Both the position numbers and the translations under genes were made by a program. The notes under the pieces are model-generated. The model saw only the letters and a program-made list of their open reading frames with translations. It was not told the origin of the DNA and made no database searches. Shown here in pieces: positions 3,017-52,759 of a stretch of DNA of 64,000 nucleotides. This stretch comes from a virus. Lineage: Duplodnaviria > Heunggongvirae > Uroviricota > Caudoviricetes. The stretch lies in IMG/VR virus record IMGVR_UViG_2861084961_000001, one strand, 5' to 3'. How positions within the stretch are numbered: position 1 is the stretch's first letter; each line of letters starts with the position of its first letter.

Positions 3017-3289
3017 ATGACTACTACTGCACTGCAAAATGAAAAAAATCCTTCTGATTACCTTGTTTGCAAGTGGTGCGGAAAATCATTTCACTATTTT
3101 AAGTCCCATGTAGCCAATGGTAATTGCGAGGGCATTCCTGAGTCAGTAAAAGATGCCGATCCTGACACCGTACTGAAAATGTACACAACGCAGTTTCCAG
3201 ATGAGCCAACGCTATCGAAAAAGGCACTTGATGCAATTCAAGCTAAACGTGCCGAGCAAAAAGCGAAATGGCCAAATCATCTGGCGTGA
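3017..3289 (+). CDS. hypothetical Cys/His-containing small protein (90 aa), possibly an N-terminal extension of the downstream ATPase
   Basis: ORF track; CxxC...H...C pattern; preceded by AGGAAAAACGCATG start context. Confidence 0.3.
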   Translation: MTTTALQNEKNPSDYLVCKWCGKSFHYFKSHVANGNCEGIPESVKDADPDTVLKMYTTQFPDEPTLSKKALDAIQAKRAEQKAKWPNHLA

Positions 3290-4251
3290 CCAATAGCCCA
3301 GGCTATACAGGCACAGTTGAGTACAAGACAGATCTGGTCGCAGCTCACGAACTGCTAAATGTAACGGTGAAAGAACTCGGAACAAAACGTGGGACGCCGC
3401 TCATGGTTAGCGTCAACGTCAATACGCCGTTTCCAGAGTTCGTTCCAGAAGTGAAGAAGGGATACGTATATGGCGACTTCGAACTGATCAAAGACATTTT
3501 CATGATGCTTGAACTTGGCATACCAGGCTATTTGTGGGGTCATGCAGGAACAGGCAAATCTTCATTGCCTACACAACTATGTGCTTTGCTCAATCGTCCG
3601 TTAATCCGTGCCCAACATACAGCATCAATGGAAGAGGCTCATGTTACGGGACAAATTCTGGCGCGTGATGGCTCTACGTATTTCGAGCCTGGCTTGCTTG
3701 CGCTCGCAATGAAGCATGGCTGGGTTTACCTCGCGGATGAATACGACTTTGCGTTTCCACAGATTCTTGGCGTGTATCAGCCAGTGCTGGAAGGTGAAGC
3801 GTTGGTCATCAAAGAGGCGACTCCAGAATGGCGTCGCATTACTCCGCATGAACGGTTTGCTTTCATTGGCACTGGCAACACGAACGGATCTGGTGATGAA
3901 ACCGGCTTGTACCAGGGTACAAACATCCAGAACGCCGCTAACTTTTCGCGTTTTGGCATCGTTTCGAATGTGAAATACATGAGCAAAGAGGCAGAGATCA
4001 ACATGTTGATAAATGCCGGCATCGTGGATGAATACGCTGAAAAGATGGTTAAGTTTGCCGGTATCGTTCGCGATGGATACGAAGAACACCTGATCAGTCA
4101 GCCGATTGGCCCTCGTGAACTTTTGTTGTCGGCCAAGATTGGAATGATGCGAGGCGACTTTGTGACAGGTATTGAGCGTTCTTTCATTAACAAACTCCCT
4201 TCAGCTTCTGCGCAAGCGGCACGTGAAGTTGTTCAAAAAATATTTGGTTAA
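3268..4251 (+). CDS. MoxR/CobS-like AAA+ ATPase
   Basis: Walker A GHAGTGKSS, Walker B-like VYLADEYD, about 327 aa, adjacent to vWA partner. Confidence 0.65.
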   Translation: MAKSSGVTNSPGYTGTVEYKTDLVAAHELLNVTVKELGTKRGTPLMVSVNVNTPFPEFVPEVKKGYVYGDFELIKDIFMMLELGIPGYLWGHAGTGKSSLPTQLCALLNRPLIRAQHTASMEEAHVTGQILARDGSTYFEPGLLALAMKHGWVYLADEYDFAFPQILGVYQPVLEGEALVIKEATPEWRRITPHERFAFIGTGNTNGSGDETGLYQGTNIQNAANFSRFGIVSNVKYMSKEAEINMLINAGIVDEYAEKMVKFAGIVRDGYEEHLISQPIGPRELLLSAKIGMMRGDFVTGIERSFINKLPSASAQAAREVVQKIFG

Positions 4252-4430
4252 TCGTGCGTAAAGGATGTTTCGGCTCTCTTATCGCTGCTTCTGAAACTGG
4301 CAAGGCTTGTCTGGTGTGTCCAGACAAGCCCGATTGTCACCAATCAGCAAAAGAAGTTGCGATTTCGATGTATGGGAAGTTCGTAGGCTTCCCCAATGAC
4401 AAAATCAAAAAACCAGAAAGGTAAAAACAC

Positions 4431-7400
4431 ATGAAGGCTCTGATGGTTCGAACTGACTTCTCTCTTGGGGAGTCGGCTCTAAAAGCAGAAAACGCGGTGA
4501 AGATTGCCAGAGAAGCTGGCTACACCGCTGTAATTTCGGCAGATAGCATGAATATTGCGAGTGTTATTCCACTACAACGTGCCGCTGGTGACGACATGGC
4601 GGTTATTTGTGGTGTGAAACTAAACATTGTTGATGATCCCACATACGAGCACCGGGCTAAACTTGCTAAAGAGTCTATGGGATGTATGGAATCATTAGAG
4701 CGTGGGCGGAACTACTCCTTTACCGCTCTAATTAAAAATGAGCAGGGATATCGAGACATCTGCGAACTAATGACGGCGGCCAACACACGAGAACAGTTCT
4801 ACTTTGTACCGCGTCTCTCGCTCGAACAGTTGGTTTCTACATATGCCAAAGGCAACATCATCCTGCTAACTTCCGACATCGGTAGCGTGTTCCAACGCAA
4901 CGATTTTGCAAAAATCATAAGCTCACTGATTACAGCGGGTGGAAAAGACAACTTCTATAGTGTGGTTTATCCGCACCCTACCCATTCTACGACCAGATTA
5001 ACGTCCGGGCGATGAAAGTCGCCAGCGCACTGAAAATAGAGCCAGTAGCGTTCTATCCCGCTTATTACGAATCGATCGACGATGCAGACATTAAAGACAT
5101 TGCGCACATGGTTACGAACAACATCAAAATCGACCAGCCGCATCGTCTGCGTATCCCCACCAGCGAGATAACGCCGTCAATTGTCGCCGCCATCTCCTTG
5201 AGGCGCTGAAAGCCTTCTCCGTTCGCATGGATGTGCCGGTAACAGCTGCAATGGCCTCAACAACGCAGGATACCATTATCGATGCCTGCACATGGCGCTG
5301 GCATGAATTGCCACCAGCACTGCCAAAGATGGCAGACGACGAGCCTGCAACTCTGATGAAACTGGCCGTTGCTGGGCTGCGTAAACGTCTTACCACAAAA
5401 GAGTTTGGCTACACACCACCGGCTTCTGAGAACAGGGTTTATGTTGAGCGACTTAAGTACGAAATGGATACGCTGACTCGCCTGGGATTCTGTGGTTACT
5501 TCCTGATGGTGCGCGATCTGATGAATCATAGTCGTGAAACTGGCATTCCCGTTGGGCCTGGTCGTGGTTCCTCTGCTGGCTCTTTGGTGGCATGGTGCAT
5601 AGGCATAACCAACGTCGACCCAATCCGTCACGGTCTTCTGTTTGAACGTTTCATCAACCCTGAGCGTCTCGACTTGCCGGATGCGGATTTGGACTTCAGC
5701 CAGGCACGTCGCCATGAAGTGATCGAGTATCTGAATGAACGCTACGGCGAAGATTACGTTGCGGGTATTCCGAACTTCACATATCTGGGCGCAGCCTCTG
5801 CACTACGTGACACCGCTCGTATTTATGGTGTGGAGTCCGCAGATATGGCGGTATCAAAGAACTGAAGAACGTCGAGGATGATAGCCTTCCATTGGAAGAA
5901 CTGCGCGAACAACTGGCAAGTCTCGACAAATACGCAACAAAATATCCTGATGCATTCAATGCAGCCTGCAAGTTACAAAGCCTTATGCGTGGCTTTGGTA
6001 GACATGCGGCAGGGATGATCGTAGCAGGTGTTCCTCTGACAGAACGTACACCGGTTGAACGACGTGGTGACGCGCGTTGTATCGCATTTGACAAGCGTTA
6101 CTGCGAGGCTATGGGCCTAATTAAGCTGGACGTGCTTGGCCTGGCAACTCTCGATTTGCTCGATAGTGCAAAACGCTACATAAAAGAGAACACAGGTGAA
6201 GATATCAATCTTGATGCCATTTCTCTTGAAGATCGCAAGGTGCTGGATGGTTTTGCTGCTGGGTACACTCAAGGTGTTTTCCAGCTTGAATCAGGCCCAA
6301 TGCGCAAGCTGCTTAAAGATTTAGGTGGTGGAATTGAGCCAATGAGCTTTAAAACGGTCGTCGCTACGACTGCGCTCTTCCGGCCGGGGCCAATTCAGTC
6401 AGGCATGTTGGATGACTATGTTTCTGTAGCCAAAGGCTTTATGAAGCCGGAATCATTACACCCCGTTCTTGATGAACTTACCGCAGAAACAAATGGCGTG
6501 ATTCTCTATCAGGAACAGACGATGAACGCGACTCGATTGCTTGCTGGCTTCACAATGGCTGAAGCTGACGGTGTTCGTAAAGCGATCGGCAAAAAGGACA
6601 TGGAAAAATGAAGAGCATGGGCGAGAAGTTCATCGTTCAGGCTCAAGCTGGCTGGATAGACGTTGAGCTGGAAGATGGCACTACACAGCGCATTCACCGT
6701 GCGGAACATTTTAAATGCGAAGACGGAACTCTGAAAACTGTCGAAGAGGCACTTGAGTACGGCGCAAAACTACCTATAAACGCAGTACGCGTTACAGCGT
6801 CACATCCAGGGCTATCAGAGATGAAAGCGAAGGAGATCTGGACCGCATTCGAAAAAAATGGAGCCTACCAGTTCAACAAATCACACTCTGTTGCTTACTC
6901 CTTAATCAGTTATCAATCTATGTGGTTGAAAACTCATTATCCCGCAGAGTTTTCGCTGCTGCTCTCACTATTCTTGGCGAAGATAAACACCAGGGGCTGG
7001 TTAAAGATGCGCTGACCTATGGTATTCGCGTATTGCCACCAGACGTTAACGTGTCATCTAACCGAATCGAGATCCGCACGCTTGAAGATGGCAGCCAGGT
7101 GCTGTATGCGCCCTTCTCTGCTGTGAAGGGGTGTTCTGAGAATGGCTGCCAGGCCATCATGAGAGCGCGAGAAAGGGTTGGCGGCAAATTCGAGTCACTG
7201 GCGCAATTCGAAGAAGCTGTCGAGAAACGTGCCTGTAATAGTCGAGTGCGCGAATCACTGCAAAAAGTAGGTGCGTTTGCGTCCATAGAGCCAGGTAGTC
7301 TGCCAGCAACTGATCCAGAGCGTCTCCGCGACCAAGCAGAATTGATGGGAAACCTTGTCATAGATGCAGTTAAAGCCTCACGTCCGTTTGAGATGAACCC

Positions 7401-34566: not shown

Positions 34567-34597
34567 GATTGCCATACATAAAATCAAATGCAAAAAT

Positions 34598-34617
34598 AGG
34601 TAATCACTTACCTATTG
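34598..34617. promoter_or_regulatory. motif A palindrome (ATAGGTAA-TCAC-TTACCTAT, perfect arms)
   Basis: Immediately upstream of the Dam-like methyltransferase start. Confidence 0.45.
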
Positions 34618-34626
34618 AGAAAGAAG

Positions 34627-35220
34627 ATGATTGCAGCCGAAAAAATCAAACAGCGAAAGCGCGACAACTCTCTTCGTGACCTCTGGAGAACACCTGATTG
34701 GCTGTTTTCTGCCATTCAACGTTATCTTGGGGTGACATTTGATGTTGACGTTGCCTGCAACAAGGACAATGCAAAGCTGCCTAATTTCATAGGCGTTGAG
34801 CGTGATGCTTTGAAATCTGAATGGGGACAGCCAGGTACAATTGCCTTCCTCAATCCACCCTACTCCAAAATCTCCCCCTGGATTGATGCTGCTATACGTG
34901 AGCAGGCTCGCGGAGTTACAACAGTGATGCTAATTCCTCAATCCCTCGATACAAAGTGGTATGAGCGTGCAACAGAGTATGCGAATGAGACGATTATTCT
35001 GTCTGGTGGCCGCGTAGCGTTTGTCGAGCCTGACGTCAATTTGGGTCAGGTAGAAGTAAACATCAACCCCGGTGGCAGTATGCTCGTTGTTTTTCGAGGA
35101 TTCTGTCAGGACGCTGGGCACTCTATAAGCAAGATCCCTTTGGACGTAATGAAAAGTCTGGGAGGGTATGATCCTGCGAATGTGGTCAGGAAAAAAAGAC
35201 CATCAAAGAAGGCTGCTTAG
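34627..35220 (+). CDS. DNA methyltransferase, NPPY motif (likely N6-adenine, phage Dam-like)
   Basis: FLNPPYSKISPW; start ATG 34627 (track begins at an alternative start 34615). Confidence 0.55.
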   Translation: MIAAEKIKQRKRDNSLRDLWRTPDWLFSAIQRYLGVTFDVDVACNKDNAKLPNFIGVERDALKSEWGQPGTIAFLNPPYSKISPWIDAAIREQARGVTTVMLIPQSLDTKWYERATEYANETIILSGGRVAFVEPDVNLGQVEVNINPGGSMLVVFRGFCQDAGHSISKIPLDVMKSLGGYDPANVVRKKRPSKKAA

Positions 35221-38352: not shown

Positions 38353-38431
38353 CGTTGACCGAAATAGAGAGTTTGCACCTTTACGTTTAGCTTGCTCCCC
38401 TTTTATGCCACATCACAATAAAGCCAATAAG

Positions 38432-38445
38432 AAAACAACTTGTTT
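38432..38445. promoter_or_regulatory. motif B palindrome (AAAACAA-C-TTGTTT)
   Basis: Upstream of 38464 gene. Confidence 0.45.
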
Positions 38446-38463
38446 AAGCATTAGGAAAAACAC

Positions 38464-39030
38464 ATGTGCAAGAAATGCAAAGCGATAGCTGATGAACAAA
38501 ACGCCTTATTCGAAGAAATGGATGCTAATGAACTGGTCAAAATGTTAGCCATTCTTCGAGGAATAGAAGACGTTTCCATATTTGAGAGAGTGGTTACAGC
38601 ACTTAATTTTGAGTCCACCTTTGAAGAGCCAACTCAGGTTGTAGCTTTAGCACATCATTTCGGTGTTCATTATCTTGCTGAAAAAGAGAGAGCTGATAAG
38701 TTGCAAGCGACTTTGGATATGGTGAGCGAGACTCAAGGAACTCATGACGGTAACAAAAGTGAGACGATTATTGCCAGCAAAGATCGTGAAATTGCCGGGC
38801 TTAAATCCTCTCTAACGATGTTGATGTCTGCAATTAACCTTATGTCTTCTAAAGCAGGTTATAAAATGCCATCACTAAACAGCGACGATCCGATGGCCGT
38901 TCGCCAGCTTTTAGGTGCAATGGCCGACCAGCTCGACGACACAAAGAGTCGCCTTGAAGACATGATGCGGGAGCTCACGCATCGCCATGACTTGAATAAG
39001 CAGCCACACAAAACGCAATACGCACTCTAA
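38464..39030 (+). CDS. hypothetical protein (188 aa)
   Basis: ORF track; AGGAAAAACACATG context. Confidence 0.45.
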   Translation: MCKKCKAIADEQNALFEEMDANELVKMLAILRGIEDVSIFERVVTALNFESTFEEPTQVVALAHHFGVHYLAEKERADKLQATLDMVSETQGTHDGNKSETIIASKDREIAGLKSSLTMLMSAINLMSSKAGYKMPSLNSDDPMAVRQLLGAMADQLDDTKSRLEDMMRELTHRHDLNKQPHKTQYAL

Positions 39031-39047
39031 TACTGCACCAGTCGACA

Positions 39048-39069
39048 GGGGGCGAAAGCCCCCATTTTT
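39048..39069 (+). terminator. rho-independent terminator GGGGGC-GAAA-GCCCCC plus T5
   Basis: Perfect stem plus ATTTTT. Confidence 0.6.
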
Positions 39070-39127
39070 ACGCCTTAAATCTGCTGTAACGCCTATGAAT
39101 GCAGCTTTTATGCCTTTTCAAGTTTGC

Positions 39128-39173
39128 GATAATTACACCAATAAGAAAACAAATTATTTAATGGTGTAATTAT
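39128..39173. promoter_or_regulatory. 12-bp perfect inverted repeat ATAATTACACCA / TGGTGTAATTAT enclosing a degenerate motif B; right arm overlaps the methyltransferase start codon
   Basis: Arms at about 39129-39140 and 39162-39173; ATG at 39172. Confidence 0.4.
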
Positions 39174-40857
39174 GAATACAGCCCTTTCCATCATCGACGA
39201 TGCCAGCTCAAACACGGCTATCGACTATCGTCAGGAAATGAATGTCATCCACGAAATCGTGGACGAGTGCGAGAAAGAGATCGCCTTCATGTATCAGGTA
39301 CACGACTTCGTTTATGGCGACGAACGCCACAACATGATTAATCGCCTGCTGAGACTAAACCATCGACCAGATGAAGATCGCTCGCGTTTAAATCGAGGTT
39401 GGTTGGATAAAGTTGATCTGGAATGGGTGAAACAGAATATTTGGGCCGAGTACTGGAGGAAGGTCACGGACATGACTAACGTTTTGCTGATCATGCCAGC
39501 TTCCCGTCGAGATGAGTGGCGCGAGCAGTTTATAGAGGGCAAACAGGAAGTCATCAAAACTGACAGAACCGGCTACCAGATGAAGGTTAAAGAGTTCGTT
39601 GGTGTACCGGAGTTCAAAGCAGAAACGGTCATACCCACGATGCTTAATTTGCTGAATGACAGGCACAAATATCTCTCTGAGCGCGTGTATGGCTTGTTTA
39701 AGGCGCTGAGTCCTGCGCACAAGACAAATAAGACAAACGGTTTCAGCGAGCGTCTGATAATCGCTGACTGCATTTCTGATTTCTGGCGGGACAGCGTTAG
39801 CGTGAACTATCGCAAAGAGGACTACATCGACGATCTGCGTGTCTTGCTTCATTTCTTCGCGCACAAAGAATTTATTACCATCAACCGCACTGCTGAGGTG
39901 CTATCAGCTGCGTATCGGGCAAACGACTGCCAGACCGGTGACTGGATGAACGTCGATGGAAATCTGATGCGCGTGAAGATGTTCAAGAACGGCAACGTTC
40001 ACTTTGAAATACATCCTGACGTGGCCTGGAAGTTGAATGAGGTGCTGGCTTACAGTATGCCTGCTGCAATCCCCGCGCCATGCCGAACTGCGCCAAAAAC
40101 ACGGGCACCAAAGCAGTTCGGTTTAATCCAGAAGACGATCTCCGTGCCGGTTCGCACTGCGCTTCGTGACGGGCGATTGAGCAAAGACAAAGGCGTATGG
40201 TACTTCTCTGATTCAGCTCTCCAGAAGTCGCAGGTGGAAGAGCTTGAGCGCACACTGAGCTTCATTGGCGGCGTGCAGGAGAAAAAGCACTGGCAGTTCC
40301 CGTATGACATCGGCCATACGCTAAATACGATTGTGGCTACCGGTTTAATACCGGATACAAAATCACACCAGTTCTACCCTACCCCACGCTTGATTGCTGA
40401 GTACGTTGCCAGAGCCACTGAATTGAAGCCTGGTGAGAAGCTGCTTGAGCCTCACGCCGGACGTGGGGATCTTCTGGCCTATATTAACGCCGATCTGGAA
40501 GATGTTACCTGCATAGAAATCGCACCTCTCTTCGCTGATATCCTGCGTGGAAAAGGGTATACGAACACGATTTGCTGCGACTTCATAAAGTGGTCTGAGG
40601 ACAACGCAGGTTATCAGTTCGACAAAATCGTTATGAACCCGCCGTACTCGCTTGGTCGTCATAGGGAGCACACGATGGCTGCGCTGGGGCATCTGAAAGT
40701 CGGCGGGCGTCTTGTAGCAGTATTGCCGGGCACTGCGCCAATACTGGACTGGATGACGATGGATAATTACGTTTATGCCAGAGGGAAGTCGTTTACCAAC
40801 GAGTTTGAAGACACAGGGATCACAGTCAGCGTATACGTTTTCAAACGCGTTAAATGA
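39172..40857 (+). CDS. DNA methyltransferase with about 400-aa N-terminal domain of unknown function and C-terminal NPPY-type catalytic domain
   Basis: LEPHAGRGDLL (SAM-binding-like) and DKIVMNPPYSLG; 561 aa intact. Confidence 0.6.
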   Translation: MNTALSIIDDASSNTAIDYRQEMNVIHEIVDECEKEIAFMYQVHDFVYGDERHNMINRLLRLNHRPDEDRSRLNRGWLDKVDLEWVKQNIWAEYWRKVTDMTNVLLIMPASRRDEWREQFIEGKQEVIKTDRTGYQMKVKEFVGVPEFKAETVIPTMLNLLNDRHKYLSERVYGLFKALSPAHKTNKTNGFSERLIIADCISDFWRDSVSVNYRKEDYIDDLRVLLHFFAHKEFITINRTAEVLSAAYRANDCQTGDWMNVDGNLMRVKMFKNGNVHFEIHPDVAWKLNEVLAYSMPAAIPAPCRTAPKTRAPKQFGLIQKTISVPVRTALRDGRLSKDKGVWYFSDSALQKSQVEELERTLSFIGGVQEKKHWQFPYDIGHTLNTIVATGLIPDTKSHQFYPTPRLIAEYVARATELKPGEKLLEPHAGRGDLLAYINADLEDVTCIEIAPLFADILRGKGYTNTICCDFIKWSEDNAGYQFDKIVMNPPYSLGRHREHTMAALGHLKVGGRLVAVLPGTAPILDWMTMDNYVYARGKSFTNEFEDTGITVSVYVFKRVK

Positions 40858-40876
40858 TAGGTAAATACTTACTTAA
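40857..40876. promoter_or_regulatory. motif A palindrome (ATAGGTAA-ATAC-TTACTTAA)
   Basis: Intergenic, upstream of 40919 gene. Confidence 0.4.
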
Positions 40877-40918
40877 TTTATGTAAGAATGTAGTAACTAA
40901 ACGATAAGAGAAAAACAC

Positions 40919-41623
40919 ATGAGCAACCTCCAGTTAGAGCATTTTAACGTCACAGGCCATTCCGATTTTCCTTTCAAGTTTACATTGAAAGGTTATGCGG
41001 AGGATGCGGTAGGCCAGATCATTATTGATAAAGGTATCGTTAAGTTTGAGGGGAATTTTGATGAATCCGCGAAAACATTCATAGACTTCGTTGCCAAACG
41101 TTGGAGCGAGCAATGGAAAGACCTGGAAAAGCGCGCCAATGAGTTTGATCGGTTCATGGATGCAATGGATACAGCAAAAGAGGCTCTGGCTGCCGGGACT
41201 CCGTTAGATCTGGAGTCACTTTTCAACGGCACAATGGCCTCTGCGATGTTCGCCACCATGTTCGCGGGTGAGTTCGTCCGCAGCGGTGCCAAAAACTACC
41301 TTGAGCTGGATTACAACGTCCCTGAAATTGGCGATTTCGTCGTTACCATCCAACGAAAAGAAGGTAAGACGCCAGGTGAACGCGTCGCAGAACTTGAGGC
41401 CGTTGTGGAGCAGCGTAACGGCGAGTGCGTTCGTTTGATCAACGAACGTAATGCTCTTCGTGAAGAAAAAATATGCACAGGTAGCAATACACGTAATGCA
41501 GCGGATATCTACTTCCAGTTAGTTGAGGAATGCCAGATTCCACCAGGTGGCTCTCTTGTCGATTACGTCAGACATTTAATGGCGGAAGTTAACTCCAGCC
41601 ATAAAGATGGTGAGGTGCGCTGA
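40919..41623 (+). CDS. hypothetical protein (234 aa)
   Basis: ORF track; GAGAAAAACACATG context. Confidence 0.45.
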   Translation: MSNLQLEHFNVTGHSDFPFKFTLKGYAEDAVGQIIIDKGIVKFEGNFDESAKTFIDFVAKRWSEQWKDLEKRANEFDRFMDAMDTAKEALAAGTPLDLESLFNGTMASAMFATMFAGEFVRSGAKNYLELDYNVPEIGDFVVTIQRKEGKTPGERVAELEAVVEQRNGECVRLINERNALREEKICTGSNTRNAADIYFQLVEECQIPPGGSLVDYVRHLMAEVNSSHKDGEVR

Positions 41624-42003
41624 TGTTTGGCATTGATGCACAGCGTATAGCAGCTTTTGCAAAAAGCCCTCTTGATAATCCCTTGTCTCGTAGTGAGCAA
41701 ATGGAGCTGGCAAGGCTTTTTCTTCACATTCAAAAACAGGCAGACGTTTTCAATAACATGCCTGATCAACCTATTCTGGATGGTCACATCCAGATGGTCA
41801 TTAACAGTCATGAGAAAGGCTGGGCTGCAATCGTCCCCTGCACAATTACATACAAGTTGGCGAAAGAGGTTCAAGAGTTTCGAAAAGCCAGTGTCGAATC
41901 GGAGTCTACCAAAGCCGCAATAAACACTCTTATTCGCATGGGGTTCACATGGGACGGTGGAGTTTACTGGCAAGCACCTCAACCCATTTTATCCGGCAAT
42001 TAG
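41623..42003 (+). CDS. hypothetical protein (126 aa)
   Basis: ORF track; start overlaps previous stop. Confidence 0.4.
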   Translation: MFGIDAQRIAAFAKSPLDNPLSRSEQMELARLFLHIQKQADVFNNMPDQPILDGHIQMVINSHEKGWAAIVPCTITYKLAKEVQEFRKASVESESTKAAINTLIRMGFTWDGGVYWQAPQPILSGN

Positions 42004-47800: not shown

Positions 47801-48190
47801 ATGGGCTTCCCTTCTCCTGCGGCGGATTATGCTGAGAGCCGTATTTCTCTTGATCAGCAGATAATTAGACATCCTTCAGCGACCTACTTCTTGAGGGCAG
47901 CTGATAGCCATCATCGTGAGGGAATATTGCAGGGTGCATTGCTGGTGGTCGATTCCTCACTCACTCCTGTTGATGGATCTCTTCTTGTATGTGCTCTGGA
48001 TGGGGAATATCGCGTAAAAAGATACCGGAAGTATCCACGTCAGCATCTGGAGGATTTAAGAACTGGTAAGAAGGAAGCATTGCCAAAGGATGATGATGGA
48101 TGCACGGGCAGCAATGCCGTGTTTGGTGTGATCACTCACATTATCAACGACGCAAGAAGTGGCGAGTTTGATGATTGTCCTGTGATGTAG
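47801..48190 (+). CDS. umuD: UmuD-prime-like protein (S24 peptidase fold, begins at the position matching the UmuD cleavage product)
   Basis: MGFPSPAADYAESRISLDQQIIRHPSATYFLRA...DGEYRVKRY matches the recalled UmuD core from residue 25 onward. Confidence 0.65.
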   Translation: MGFPSPAADYAESRISLDQQIIRHPSATYFLRAADSHHREGILQGALLVVDSSLTPVDGSLLVCALDGEYRVKRYRKYPRQHLEDLRTGKKEALPKDDDGCTGSNAVFGVITHIINDARSGEFDDCPVM

Positions 48191-51602: not shown

Positions 51603-51668
51603 AAAACAATTTGTTTTCTGCCTTTTGTTGATTGAGATAATAAGCCACATAAGAAAACAAATTGTTTC
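51603..51668. promoter_or_regulatory. two motif B palindromes (AAAACAA-T-TTGTTTT and GAAAACAAATTGTTTC)
   Basis: Immediately right of the metG terminator, upstream of 51681 gene. Confidence 0.45.
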
Positions 51669-52025: not shown

Positions 52026-52759
52026 ATGAAAAAGTTGAAAAGTTTAGAAATCCCTGGGACTGGTTATAAATTCTTTATGGACAACGCGGAGTGTGCGCCT
52101 AACGCGTTGGAAAAAATACAAAGTCTTATCAACAGCCTTACTGAAGAAGCGAAAGAACTGAAGAGCGAGGCGACAAAGGACAATACAGCTAAAATCCAAT
52201 GCTTAAATCTCGTCTCTTATTGTTTATATCAAGTATCCAAAACACTGATTAAAGGCAATATCTATTACGACGATGAAGACACCTCGACACCTGAAGAAAA
52301 GATAGCGATGAAGAACTCTATGAAGATATCTCTACTAGTGCGGGTCACGCTGCCTTCGATGCTATGGGTAAATCGTCAGGCATCAGATCATTTGTTGAAC
52401 AGAACAATTCGACAATAATGATTGAGTACTGTGAACAAACAAGCTCCAAGGCCATACATGTTCTTCACGATGTTGCTGCAGGGGTTCGTTGTGAGGCTGA
52501 AGCGGTAAGAAAAGATGTATTTGGTGCAGACAGTAATACCGTGAAAGCGTTTATCAACAGTGCTCTGCTAAATTCTTACTCAAACCTTATAGTCAATGCG
52601 GCACTATGCGCAAATTCAGGTGAAGAACACATTGTCATAACCGAAACCAAACATGAGCATCAACAGTCACCAACCATAGAAGAGGTAACTGCATTGGCTA
52701 TCAAACAGGCGAGTGAAATTAGTGATGAAATTCTCTCTCTGCTAAACAAAACTAGGTAA
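52026..52759 (+). CDS. hypothetical protein (ORFs 52026..52418 and 52364..52759, probably one gene)
   Basis: ORF track; overlapping frames. Confidence 0.35.

What the first reader, a model, noticed from the sequence alone, without database searches (positions are those of the whole stretch)
39128..40857. Large methyltransferase with unknown N-terminal domain and start codon inside a 12-bp inverted repeat
The 561-aa protein has an NPPY catalytic domain only in its last about 170 residues; the first about 400 residues have no recognisable motif. Its ATG lies within the right arm of a perfect 12-bp inverted repeat that encloses a motif-B-like site, so the start could be sequestered or the site could be an operator. 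A second, smaller NPPY methyltransferase lies at 34627-35220.
Basis: partly seen in the sequence, partly recalled or inferred. Interest (0 to 1): 0.45.

Follow-up and report, generated by a model that had tools for sequence, protein, structure and literature searches.

The report
Orphan phage-plasmid adenine methyltransferase with hairpin
The gene encodes a stand-alone adenine methyltransferase of an SSU5-like phage-plasmid, probably acting on DNA; its large front part is a conserved domain of unknown fold, and the inverted repeat at its start is real and most likely blocks translation only on transcripts that read in from upstream.

Summary
ORF 39172-40857 (561 aa) has an intact adenine-methyltransferase domain in residues about 395-561. 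A perfect 12-bp inverted repeat (39129-39140 / 39162-39173) overlaps the ATG. A Dam-family methyltransferase lies at 34627-35220.

The left arm of the repeat is the -10 element plus the start of a promoter-operator cassette that recurs about ten times in the window. "Motif B" is that cassette's palindrome, AAACAAnTTGTTT. The right arm is the Shine-Dalgarno sequence plus ATG. Only this cassette folds (z = -5.0). E. coli lineages keep a perfect repeat through two compensatory changes, whereas SSU5 and Klebsiella relatives lack it. Transcripts from the gene's own promoter would miss the left arm. The best model is therefore IS10-like fold-back inhibition of read-through transcripts. This is a moderately interesting new variant of a known kind.

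The parts
39048..39070 (+). Intrinsic terminator (GGGGGCGAAAGCCCCC followed by a T-run) ending the upstream 188-aa gene
   Evidence: Terminator scan; sequence. It is conserved in SSU5-type relatives and absent in Cyrano-type relatives.
39112..39133 (+). Core of the gene's own promoter: GCCTTTT element plus extended -10 (TG at 39125-39126, GATAAT at 39128-39133). Predicted transcription start is about 39140.
   Evidence: TGnGATAAT and GCCTTTT are conserved in about 30 diverged relatives and recur in about ten cassettes in the window. The start site is inferred from spacing and was not measured.
39129..39140 (+). Left arm of the inverted repeat (ATAATTACACCA), made of the -10 ATAAT plus the conserved cassette sequence ACACCA
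   Evidence: the cassette consensus is.
39147..39159 (.). Degenerate copy (AAACAAATTATTT) of the cassette palindrome AAACAAnTTGTTT ('motif B'), a presumed operator at about +8 to +20
   Evidence: 14 sites against 0.5 expected. At least 11 lie within 40 nt upstream of a start codon. It is perfect in most relatives of this gene.
39162..39173 (+). Right arm of the inverted repeat (TGGTGTAATTAT), made of the weak Shine-Dalgarno GGTG (39163-39166), a spacer, and the AT of the start codon
   Evidence: Klebsiella-clade relatives have GAGGAG at the same place and no repeat.
39172..40857 (+). CDS of the 561-aa orphan methyltransferase (PHROG 6263; annotated 'DUF4942 domain-containing protein')
39436..40056 (+). 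DUF4942 region (residues ~89-295) with invariant polar residues (H183, T185, N186, D221, R223, D262, H277, E279 and others)
   Evidence: Pfam; conservation over 139 family representatives; no PDB fold match.
40354..40854 (+). Gamma-type N6-adenine methyltransferase catalytic domain (FYPTP 40372-40386, motif I 40444-40470, NPPY 40636-40647)
40858..40875 (.). Second type of palindrome (TAGGTAAATACTTACTTA, 'TAGGTAA-N4-TTACCTA' family) directly after the stop codon
   Evidence: 6 sites against 0.11 expected; context.
34627..35220 (+). Small Dam-family N6-adenine methyltransferase (197 aa)
   Evidence: Pfam PF05869; TIGR01712; annotated 'Adenine methyltransferase' in phage Cyrano.

Best explanation
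The gene encodes an orphan (no restriction partner) S-adenosylmethionine-dependent N6-adenine DNA methyltransferase of an SSU5/Cyrano-type phage-plasmid. It has two units. Residues ~320-561 are a small alpha/beta subdomain plus a gamma-order catalytic Rossmann domain that ends without a C-terminal target-recognition domain. Residues 1-~305 are a helical region plus DUF4942, a module of unknown fold that always accompanies this catalytic unit. I infer that the N-terminal module supplies DNA binding or target recognition for one fixed motif, as in Dam or CcrM. I also infer that the enzyme pre-emptively methylates the element's DNA against host restriction, alongside the Dam-type enzyme 4 kb upstream. 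The gene is driven by one copy of a promoter-operator cassette (GCCTTTT, extended -10 TGnGATAAT, then the palindrome AAACAAnTTGTTT at about +8 to +20) that heads about ten accessory genes. It therefore belongs to an element-wide regulon, probably repressor-controlled. The 12-bp repeat (16 bp in sister lineages) pairs the -10 and start-site region with the Shine-Dalgarno sequence and AUG. Transcripts from the gene's own promoter start inside or after the left arm and stay open. Transcripts reading in from upstream contain both arms and fold into a hairpin that hides the ribosome-binding site. This is the 'fold-back inhibition' logic known from IS10 (own knowledge), and it keeps a potentially harmful foreign methyltransferase under the sole control of its own promoter. 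Shown here: sequence features, folds, distribution and co-variation. Inferred: DNA substrate, role of the N-terminal module, transcription start site, hairpin function.
For: Orphan status: 39 distant phage loci share no conserved neighbour. The flanking genes have no nuclease, helix-turn-helix or defence hits.
N-terminal module coupled to the enzyme: a profile of residues 1-392 finds 1288 clusters. Nearly all of the top 150 are 500-590 aa with the module at positions 1-390, and the full-length members listed carry an (N/D/S)PP(Y/F/W) motif. The DUF4942 core has 34 columns >=90% conserved against 25 in the catalytic domain. In one phage the two units are adjacent separate genes of 277 aa and 229 aa.
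Cassette.
Hairpin: -13.7 kcal/mol with z = -5.0, whereas nine other cassettes give z between -1.4 and +1.5. RNA starting at 39140 has no such structure. There are three perfect variants differing by compensatory changes at two positions (A:T to G:C, T:A to A:T), and two variants with C-to-T changes that keep U.G pairs in the sense RNA. In the E. coli-type subclade 92% of cells are paired and the covariation score is reached by 1 of 500 shuffles. The lineage with no terminator upstream has the longest repeat, 16 bp perfect at -19.1 kcal/mol.
Confidence: 0.5

Rival explanations
1. The inverted repeat is a DNA operator: a dimeric or tetrameric protein binds the two arms and shuts the promoter. 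The protein could be the methyltransferase itself acting through its N-terminus, as in M.SsoII-type autoregulation (own knowledge), or another element-encoded regulator.
For: The arms overlap the -10 element and the start codon. Their centres are 32-33 bp apart, about three helical turns. In Cyrano-type relatives the shared palindrome is destroyed while the repeat is extended to 16 bp, as if one control had replaced the other.
Against: Perfect arms of 12-16 bp are much longer than usual protein half-sites. The two single-arm variants are C-to-T changes that keep U.G pairs in the sense RNA but would be mismatches for a symmetric protein site. No helix-turn-helix was found in the protein or its neighbours. 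The repeat is absent in most of the family.
Confidence: 0.15
2. The repeat has no function. Two independently constrained elements (the -10 ATAAT plus ACACCA of the cassette, and GGTG...ATTATG of the ribosome site) happen to be complementary. Quasipalindrome template-switch mutation then homogenised the arms, creating apparent compensatory changes in one step.
For: The left arm is generic cassette sequence. ATAAT and ATTAT(G) are complementary by their nature. Family-wide covariation is not significant. Template-switch correction of imperfect palindromes is well documented in E. coli (PMC7202029).
Against: Only this one of ten cassettes folds. Perfection is kept in three sequence variants and extended to 16 bp. 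A perfect 12-bp repeat is rare in this window's composition (0.15 expected).
Confidence: 0.2
3. The enzyme methylates RNA (rRNA or tRNA) or a protein, not DNA.
Against: Sequence identity is higher to DNA enzymes (CamA 27%, M.TaqI 25%). The FYPTP motif before motif I is typical of HsdM and TaqI-type DNA enzymes (own knowledge). DNA-methyltransferase profiles of PADLOC and PHROGs hit it. It sits in a phage accessory region with a Dam enzyme, and in some plasmids the locus is occupied by a Type I restriction-modification system.
Confidence: 0.1
4. The DUF4942 module is not a recognition domain. It has its own activity, enzymatic or inhibitory against a host defence, and is merely fused to a methyltransferase as in polyvalent phage proteins.
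For: It has many invariant polar residues, including an H-x-E-x-H-P-D stretch on one strand, and a new fold. DUF4942 is also annotated in E. coli and Shigella islands next to RadC and toxin-antitoxin genes (PMC6980539). The catalytic unit alone recurs inside giant multi-domain phage proteins (phrog_9133, 15406, 11358).
Against: The two units are strictly coupled in more than a thousand clusters and lie side by side when split. The catalytic unit has no recognition domain of its own.
Confidence: 0.15

Closest known systems
Gamma-class N6-adenine DNA methyltransferases (M.TaqI, M.BseCI, CamA)
   Different: Those enzymes carry the target-recognition domain after the catalytic domain. Here the protein ends 69 residues after NPPY, and a 390-residue module of unknown fold sits in front. 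No Pfam methyltransferase model reaches threshold.
Type I HsdM + HsdS (methylase plus separate specificity subunit)
   Different: No HsdS-like fold or sequence was found, and there is no HsdR. The partner module is highly conserved, not hypervariable.
Phage and plasmid orphan methyltransferases (T4/T1/P1 Dam-type; the Dam-family gene at 34627-35220)
   Same: A stand-alone adenine methyltransferase in the accessory or early region of a temperate element, with no nuclease partner. The presumed role is evasion of host restriction (own knowledge for the role).
   Different: It belongs to an unrelated family (DUF4942/PHROG 6263, not PF05869), is three times larger, and its target motif is unknown.
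IS10/Tn10 fold-back inhibition of transposase translation (own knowledge: Davis, Simons and Kleckner 1985)
   Same: An inverted repeat has its 5' arm upstream of or overlapping the native start site and its 3' arm covering the ribosome-binding site. Only transcripts from outside promoters can fold and are then not translated.
   Different: The mechanism is not demonstrated here. The gene is a methyltransferase, not a transposase, and the 5' arm is part of a shared promoter cassette.
Dispersed-operator regulons and mobile promoter cassettes of phages (P1 C1 operators, own knowledge; T4-type PeSL cassettes, PMC2839356 and PMC4122927)
   Same: A short conserved promoter-plus-palindrome unit is repeated in front of many accessory genes. 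Homology between related genomes breaks at the cassette: Cyrano-type similarity resumes at window 39107.
   Different: The sequence is unrelated, the binding protein is unknown, and the palindrome lies downstream of the -10 element and is not a terminator stem-loop.

Membership tests
Pfam DUF4942 (PF13708) | Score above the curated gathering threshold | tested here: met
   74 bits against a cutoff of 25, residues 140-295. A weaker extension reaches residue 89.
PHROG 6263 ('DNA methyltransferase') | Full-length profile match | tested here: met
   E 1.6e-298, residues 1-561 against profile positions 1-548 of 548.
Gamma-class N6-adenine DNA methyltransferase | Linear order of motif X, motif I, then motif IV (N/D)PP(Y/F) | tested here: met
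   FYPTP 401-405, LEPHAGRGD 425-433, NPPY 489-492. These residues are invariant in the family alignment.
Gamma-class N6-adenine DNA methyltransferase | Class I Rossmann methyltransferase fold | tested here: met
Gamma-class N6-adenine DNA methyltransferase | Target-recognition domain C-terminal to the catalytic domain | tested here: not met
   The protein ends 69 residues after NPPY, and those residues complete the Rossmann fold.
Gamma-class N6-adenine DNA methyltransferase | Sequence-specific m6A formation on DNA | not testable with these tools
   This needs methylome sequencing or an enzyme assay.
Type II or Type I restriction-modification system | Cognate endonuclease or HsdR/HsdS gene next to the methylase | tested here: not met
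   The neighbours are unknown-function, Ead/Ea22-like and HD phosphohydrolase genes. No neighbour is conserved in 39 phage loci.
Methylase with its own transcriptional control (C-protein-controlled or self-regulating, M.SsoII-type) | A helix-turn-helix regulator gene nearby, or a helix-turn-helix domain in the methylase | tested here: not met
Fold-back (read-through-specific) translational inhibition | The 3' arm covers the Shine-Dalgarno sequence and AUG, and the 5' arm is absent from the native transcript | tested here: inconclusive
   The arm positions fit. The native start site is only predicted from a conserved extended -10 element. Folding with and without the left arm gives -13.7 against -5.3 kcal/mol.
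Fold-back (read-through-specific) translational inhibition | Pairing maintained by compensatory change | tested here: met
   In the E. coli-type subclade there are two pairs with double changes and three U.G or G.U single changes; 1 of 500 shuffles reaches the score. The test is not significant over the wider clade.
Phage Dam family (PF05869 / TIGR01712), small gene at 34627-35220 | Score above the curated thresholds | tested here: met
   PF05869 scores 131.9 bits against 28.1. TIGR01712 scores 113.9 against 97.05.

The most novel reading that the evidence does not exclude
DUF4942 is a new-fold DNA-recognition (or second catalytic) module. Together with a recognition-less catalytic unit, it would define a previously undescribed architectural class of fixed-specificity orphan m6A methyltransferases, separable into two subunits like HsdS and HsdM and spread through more than a thousand phage and plasmid lineages. 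E. coli phage-plasmids would additionally have evolved an IS10-like hairpin that ties translation of this enzyme to its own promoter.
Probability: 0.25. Interest if true: 0.55.

Novelty: new variant of a known kind. Interest (0 to 1): 0.35.

Why it matters
SSU5-type phage-plasmids carrying this gene are present in 242 of 5426 complete E. coli genomes. They are known carriers of resistance genes (PMC9600943). Genome annotation calls the protein only a "DUF4942 domain-containing protein", so a likely anti-restriction function is hidden in thousands of records.

If the N-terminal module proves to be the recognition part, DUF4942 would gain a function. A new way of building an adenine methyltransferase would also be defined.

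The promoter-operator cassette and the read-through-blocking hairpin give testable handles on how these elements time their accessory genes. None of this overturns current ideas. It extends known themes: orphan phage methylases, dispersed operators and ribosome-site sequestration.

Tried and rejected
2. Restriction partner or controller protein. None was found in the neighbours or in 39 distant loci.
3. A second homologue search with a DUF4942-core profile returned mostly fragments and said little about architectures. It did lead to the split-gene case.
4. Literature. DUF4942 appears only in passing in 4 papers. Nothing was found on this enzyme in SSU5 or pHCM2, on the palindrome sequence, or, in the held library, on IS10 fold-back inhibition. 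That comparison therefore rests on my own knowledge.
5. Intrinsic terminator role for the hairpin: rejected, because no U-run follows it.
6. RNA hairpin role for the AAACAAnTTGTTT palindrome: rejected, because a one-base loop is impossible, so it must be a DNA site.
7. NtrC, sigma-54, IHF, LexA or Fur sites in the arms or the palindrome: considered from memory and rejected on spacing or sequence.
8. Identity of the palindrome-binding protein: ten cassette-driven genes gave no helix-turn-helix or other informative hits.

Full report
**What the window is.** The region 38400-41700 is 96-97% identical to Escherichia phages Cyrano, CMS-2020a and PhiR41_1. It is about 88% identical to Salmonella phage SSU5 and Klebsiella relatives. 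The window is therefore an SSU5-type phage-plasmid. In those records the gene is annotated "DUF4942 domain-containing protein", "DNA methyltransferase" or "hypothetical protein". It occurs in 242 of 5426 complete E. coli genomes, always on plasmids and typically of about 106-113 kb.

**Checking the observation.** The ORF runs 39172-40857, starts with ATG and encodes 561 aa.
- FYPTP (residues 401-405), LEPHAGRGD (425-433) and NPPY (489-492) lie in the last 167 residues.
- The repeat is ATAATTACACCA (39129-39140) paired with TGGTGTAATTAT (39162-39173). It is perfect over 12 bp and 15/16 when extended. The right arm covers the first two bases of the ATG.
- Perfect repeats of this size with loops of 3-60 nt are expected 0.15 times in shuffled windows. 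Seven occur, and most of the others look like terminators.
- The small gene at 34627-35220 is a Dam-family enzyme (PF05869, TIGR01712).

All parts of the observation are confirmed. The one correction is that residues about 89-295 match Pfam DUF4942.

**The protein.**
- An AlphaFold2 model built on 32 homologues is confident (pLDDT 83, pTM 0.72).
- The SAM-binding and catalytic residues are invariant in the family, so the enzyme is probably active.
- Profiles of DNA methyltransferases hit this domain (PADLOC mad2 and MTase_II, several PHROGs). No Pfam methyltransferase model reaches threshold, which explains the uninformative public annotation.
- The chain ends 69 residues after NPPY, so there is no C-terminal recognition domain.

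**The N-terminal module is a fixed partner of the catalytic unit.**
- A profile of residues 1-392 scored against 1.84 billion representatives finds 1288 clusters, 338 of them below 1e-30. Nearly all of the best 150 are 500-590 aa with the module at the front. The full-length members listed carry an NPPY-type motif.
- Over 139 representatives, the DUF4942 core has more columns conserved at >=90% (34) than the catalytic domain (25). These include many polar residues: T156, R164, H183, T185, N186, R194, D221, R223, D262, H277, E279, N289 and R305.
- In one phage contig the two units are adjacent separate genes. One is a 277-aa DUF4942 protein. The other is a 229-aa protein that begins with the small alpha/beta subdomain and carries HQFYPTP, LEPSAGHG and NPPF.
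- The catalytic unit alone (residues 328-560) also matches segments of very large multi-domain phage proteins.
- Neighbouring genes differ in almost every one of 39 distant phage loci.

I conclude that this is an orphan two-module methyltransferase. High conservation of the front module argues against a hypervariable specificity domain. It argues for either recognition of one fixed target, as in Dam or CcrM, or another conserved activity.

**The surroundings of the start codon.** Upstream sequences of about 35 relatives show three conserved features:
- a GCCTTTT element;
- an extended -10 element, TGnGATAAT (window 39125-39133);
- the palindrome AAACAAnTTGTTT between the -10 element and the ribosome site.

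The palindrome has 14 copies with at most one mismatch in the window, against 0.5 expected. At least 11 lie within 40 nt upstream of a start codon. About ten share the whole arrangement: GCCTTTT, about 8 nt, TGnGATAAT, (A/T)A-CRCCAA-YAAGA, palindrome, ribosome site, ATG. Some have a second palindrome upstream of the promoter (42055, 51604, 55675).

This is a repeated promoter-operator cassette. The window's copy at the methyltransferase gene is degenerate (AAACAAATTATTT). A one-base loop rules out an RNA hairpin for this palindrome, so it is a DNA site for an unidentified dimeric protein. The genes it heads have no known function. By analogy with the dispersed C1 operators of P1 (own knowledge), I take it to be the element's repressor site, but this is inference.

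**What the 12-bp repeat is made of.** The left arm is the ATAAT of the -10 element plus the generic cassette sequence (T/A)ACACCA. The right arm is the weak Shine-Dalgarno GGTG, a spacer and AT(G). In the Klebsiella clade the Shine-Dalgarno is GAGGAG and no repeat exists. Salmonella and SSU5 types have 8-10 of 12 complementary positions. Across 19 variants the helix shows no significant covariation. The repeat is therefore not a family trait.

**Evidence that the repeat is nevertheless selected in E. coli lineages.**
- Among ten cassettes in the window, only this one folds: -13.7 kcal/mol, z = -5.0, 0 of 200 shuffles. The other nine give z from -1.4 to +1.5.
- Three variants are perfect and differ by double, compensating changes at two positions. 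These are ATAATTACACCA/TGGTGTAATTAT (window), ATAATTGCACCA/TGGTGCAATTAT (Cyrano type) and ATAATAGCACCA/TGGTGCTATTAT (plasmid NZ_OW849379). The last two are perfect over 16 bp, at -19.1 and -19.5 kcal/mol.
- Two further variants carry C-to-T changes in the left arm, giving U.G pairs in the sense RNA.
- On eight E. coli-type sequences, 92% of cells pair and 1 of 500 shuffles reaches the covariation score. This subset was chosen after seeing the data, and the test ignores relatedness, so I treat it as moderate support.

**Mechanism.** With the -10 element at 39128-39133, the start site should be near 39140, the last base of the left arm. RNA from that point has no hairpin and an open ribosome site (-5.3 kcal/mol, z = +0.6). 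RNA that includes the left arm hides both GGUG and AUG.

This is the layout of IS10 fold-back inhibition (own knowledge). The native transcript is translatable, and transcripts entering from outside are not.

Consistent with this, the Cyrano type has two extra genes inserted upstream, and no predicted terminator lies between the upstream cassette and the methyltransferase. That type has the longest perfect repeat and has lost the palindrome. The window type keeps a terminator at 39048-39070 and has the shorter repeat.

A plausible reason for such insulation is that untimely expression of a foreign adenine methylase can be harmful in hosts with methylation-dependent restriction such as Mrr (own knowledge).

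Two rivals remain open. One is a protein operator. The other is a functionless quasipalindrome perfected by template switching (PMC7202029).

**Comparison with what is known.** The catalytic unit is an ordinary gamma-order adenine methyltransferase domain. The protein fails the gamma-class feature of a C-terminal recognition domain. It is not part of a restriction-modification system. Functionally it resembles other orphan phage methylases, including the Dam enzyme in the same window. The separable partner module recalls HsdS with HsdM, but it is unrelated in fold and is conserved, not variable. The cassette recalls dispersed phage operators and the PeSL cassettes of T4-type phages (PMC2839356, PMC4122927). 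Homology between the window and Cyrano-type genomes breaks exactly at the cassette, at window 39107.

**Verdict.** The protein is a member of an already catalogued but uncharacterised family. The hairpin is a lineage-specific addition with decent but not decisive comparative support. This is a new variant of known kinds, of moderate interest (0.35).

Noticed in passing
window 782, 13188, 27492, 37706, 38433, 39147, 42055, 51604, 51655, 53094, 54289, 54772, 55675, 56439: The palindrome AAACAAnTTGTTT occurs 14 times (0.5 expected). Most copies are part of a repeated promoter cassette (GCCTTTT, extended -10 TGnGATAAT, CRCCAAYAAGA, palindrome, ribosome site) placed in front of accessory genes of unknown function. 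The binding protein is unknown.
   Followed up: partly
window 20377, 25051, 34597, 36809, 40858, 62219: A second palindrome family, TAGGTAA-N4-TTACCTA, has 6 sites against 0.11 expected. One lies just upstream of the Dam start (34596-34615) and one directly after the large methyltransferase's stop codon. In SSU5 the arms upstream of Dam are conserved while the loop differs. Site 62219 carries a compensating G:C to A:T change.
   Followed up: partly
window 51604-51667: Two perfect copies of the AAACAAnTTGTTT palindrome flank one promoter (16-nt arms, 32 nt apart) in front of a 102-aa DUF5983 protein. This is the strongest operator arrangement in the window.
   Followed up: partly
window 39072, 39091, 39112: Three direct repeats of (A/T)(C/T)GCCT(N) lie about 20 bp apart upstream of the methyltransferase promoter. 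The GCCT element sits near -28 in all cassettes and could be an activator box.
   Followed up: no
L086 (NZ_OW849379.1) 3066-6520: In some E. coli phage-plasmids the methyltransferase gene is cut off after about 150 codons and a Type I restriction-modification system (hsdR) sits there on the opposite strand. The locus is a swap point for defence and counter-defence genes. The promoter and perfect 16-bp repeat are retained.
   Followed up: partly
L001 (phage Cyrano) 6689-7587: Cyrano-type genomes have two extra genes inserted between the 188-aa gene and the methyltransferase. Similarity to the window resumes at the promoter cassette (window 39107).
   Followed up: partly
window 52026-52759: Two overlapping ORFs (130 and 131 aa) match the first and second halves of one PHROG family (phrog_20845, 244 positions). 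This is a frameshifted gene or a programmed frameshift.
   Followed up: no
L090 4001-5571: A metagenomic phage contig encodes the DUF4942 module (277 aa) and the methyltransferase unit (229 aa) as two adjacent genes.
   Followed up: yes
window 47801-48190: A 129-aa HumD-family protein (P1 humD-like UmuD' homologue) lies next to a ParA/MinD-like gene on the opposite strand.
   Followed up: no
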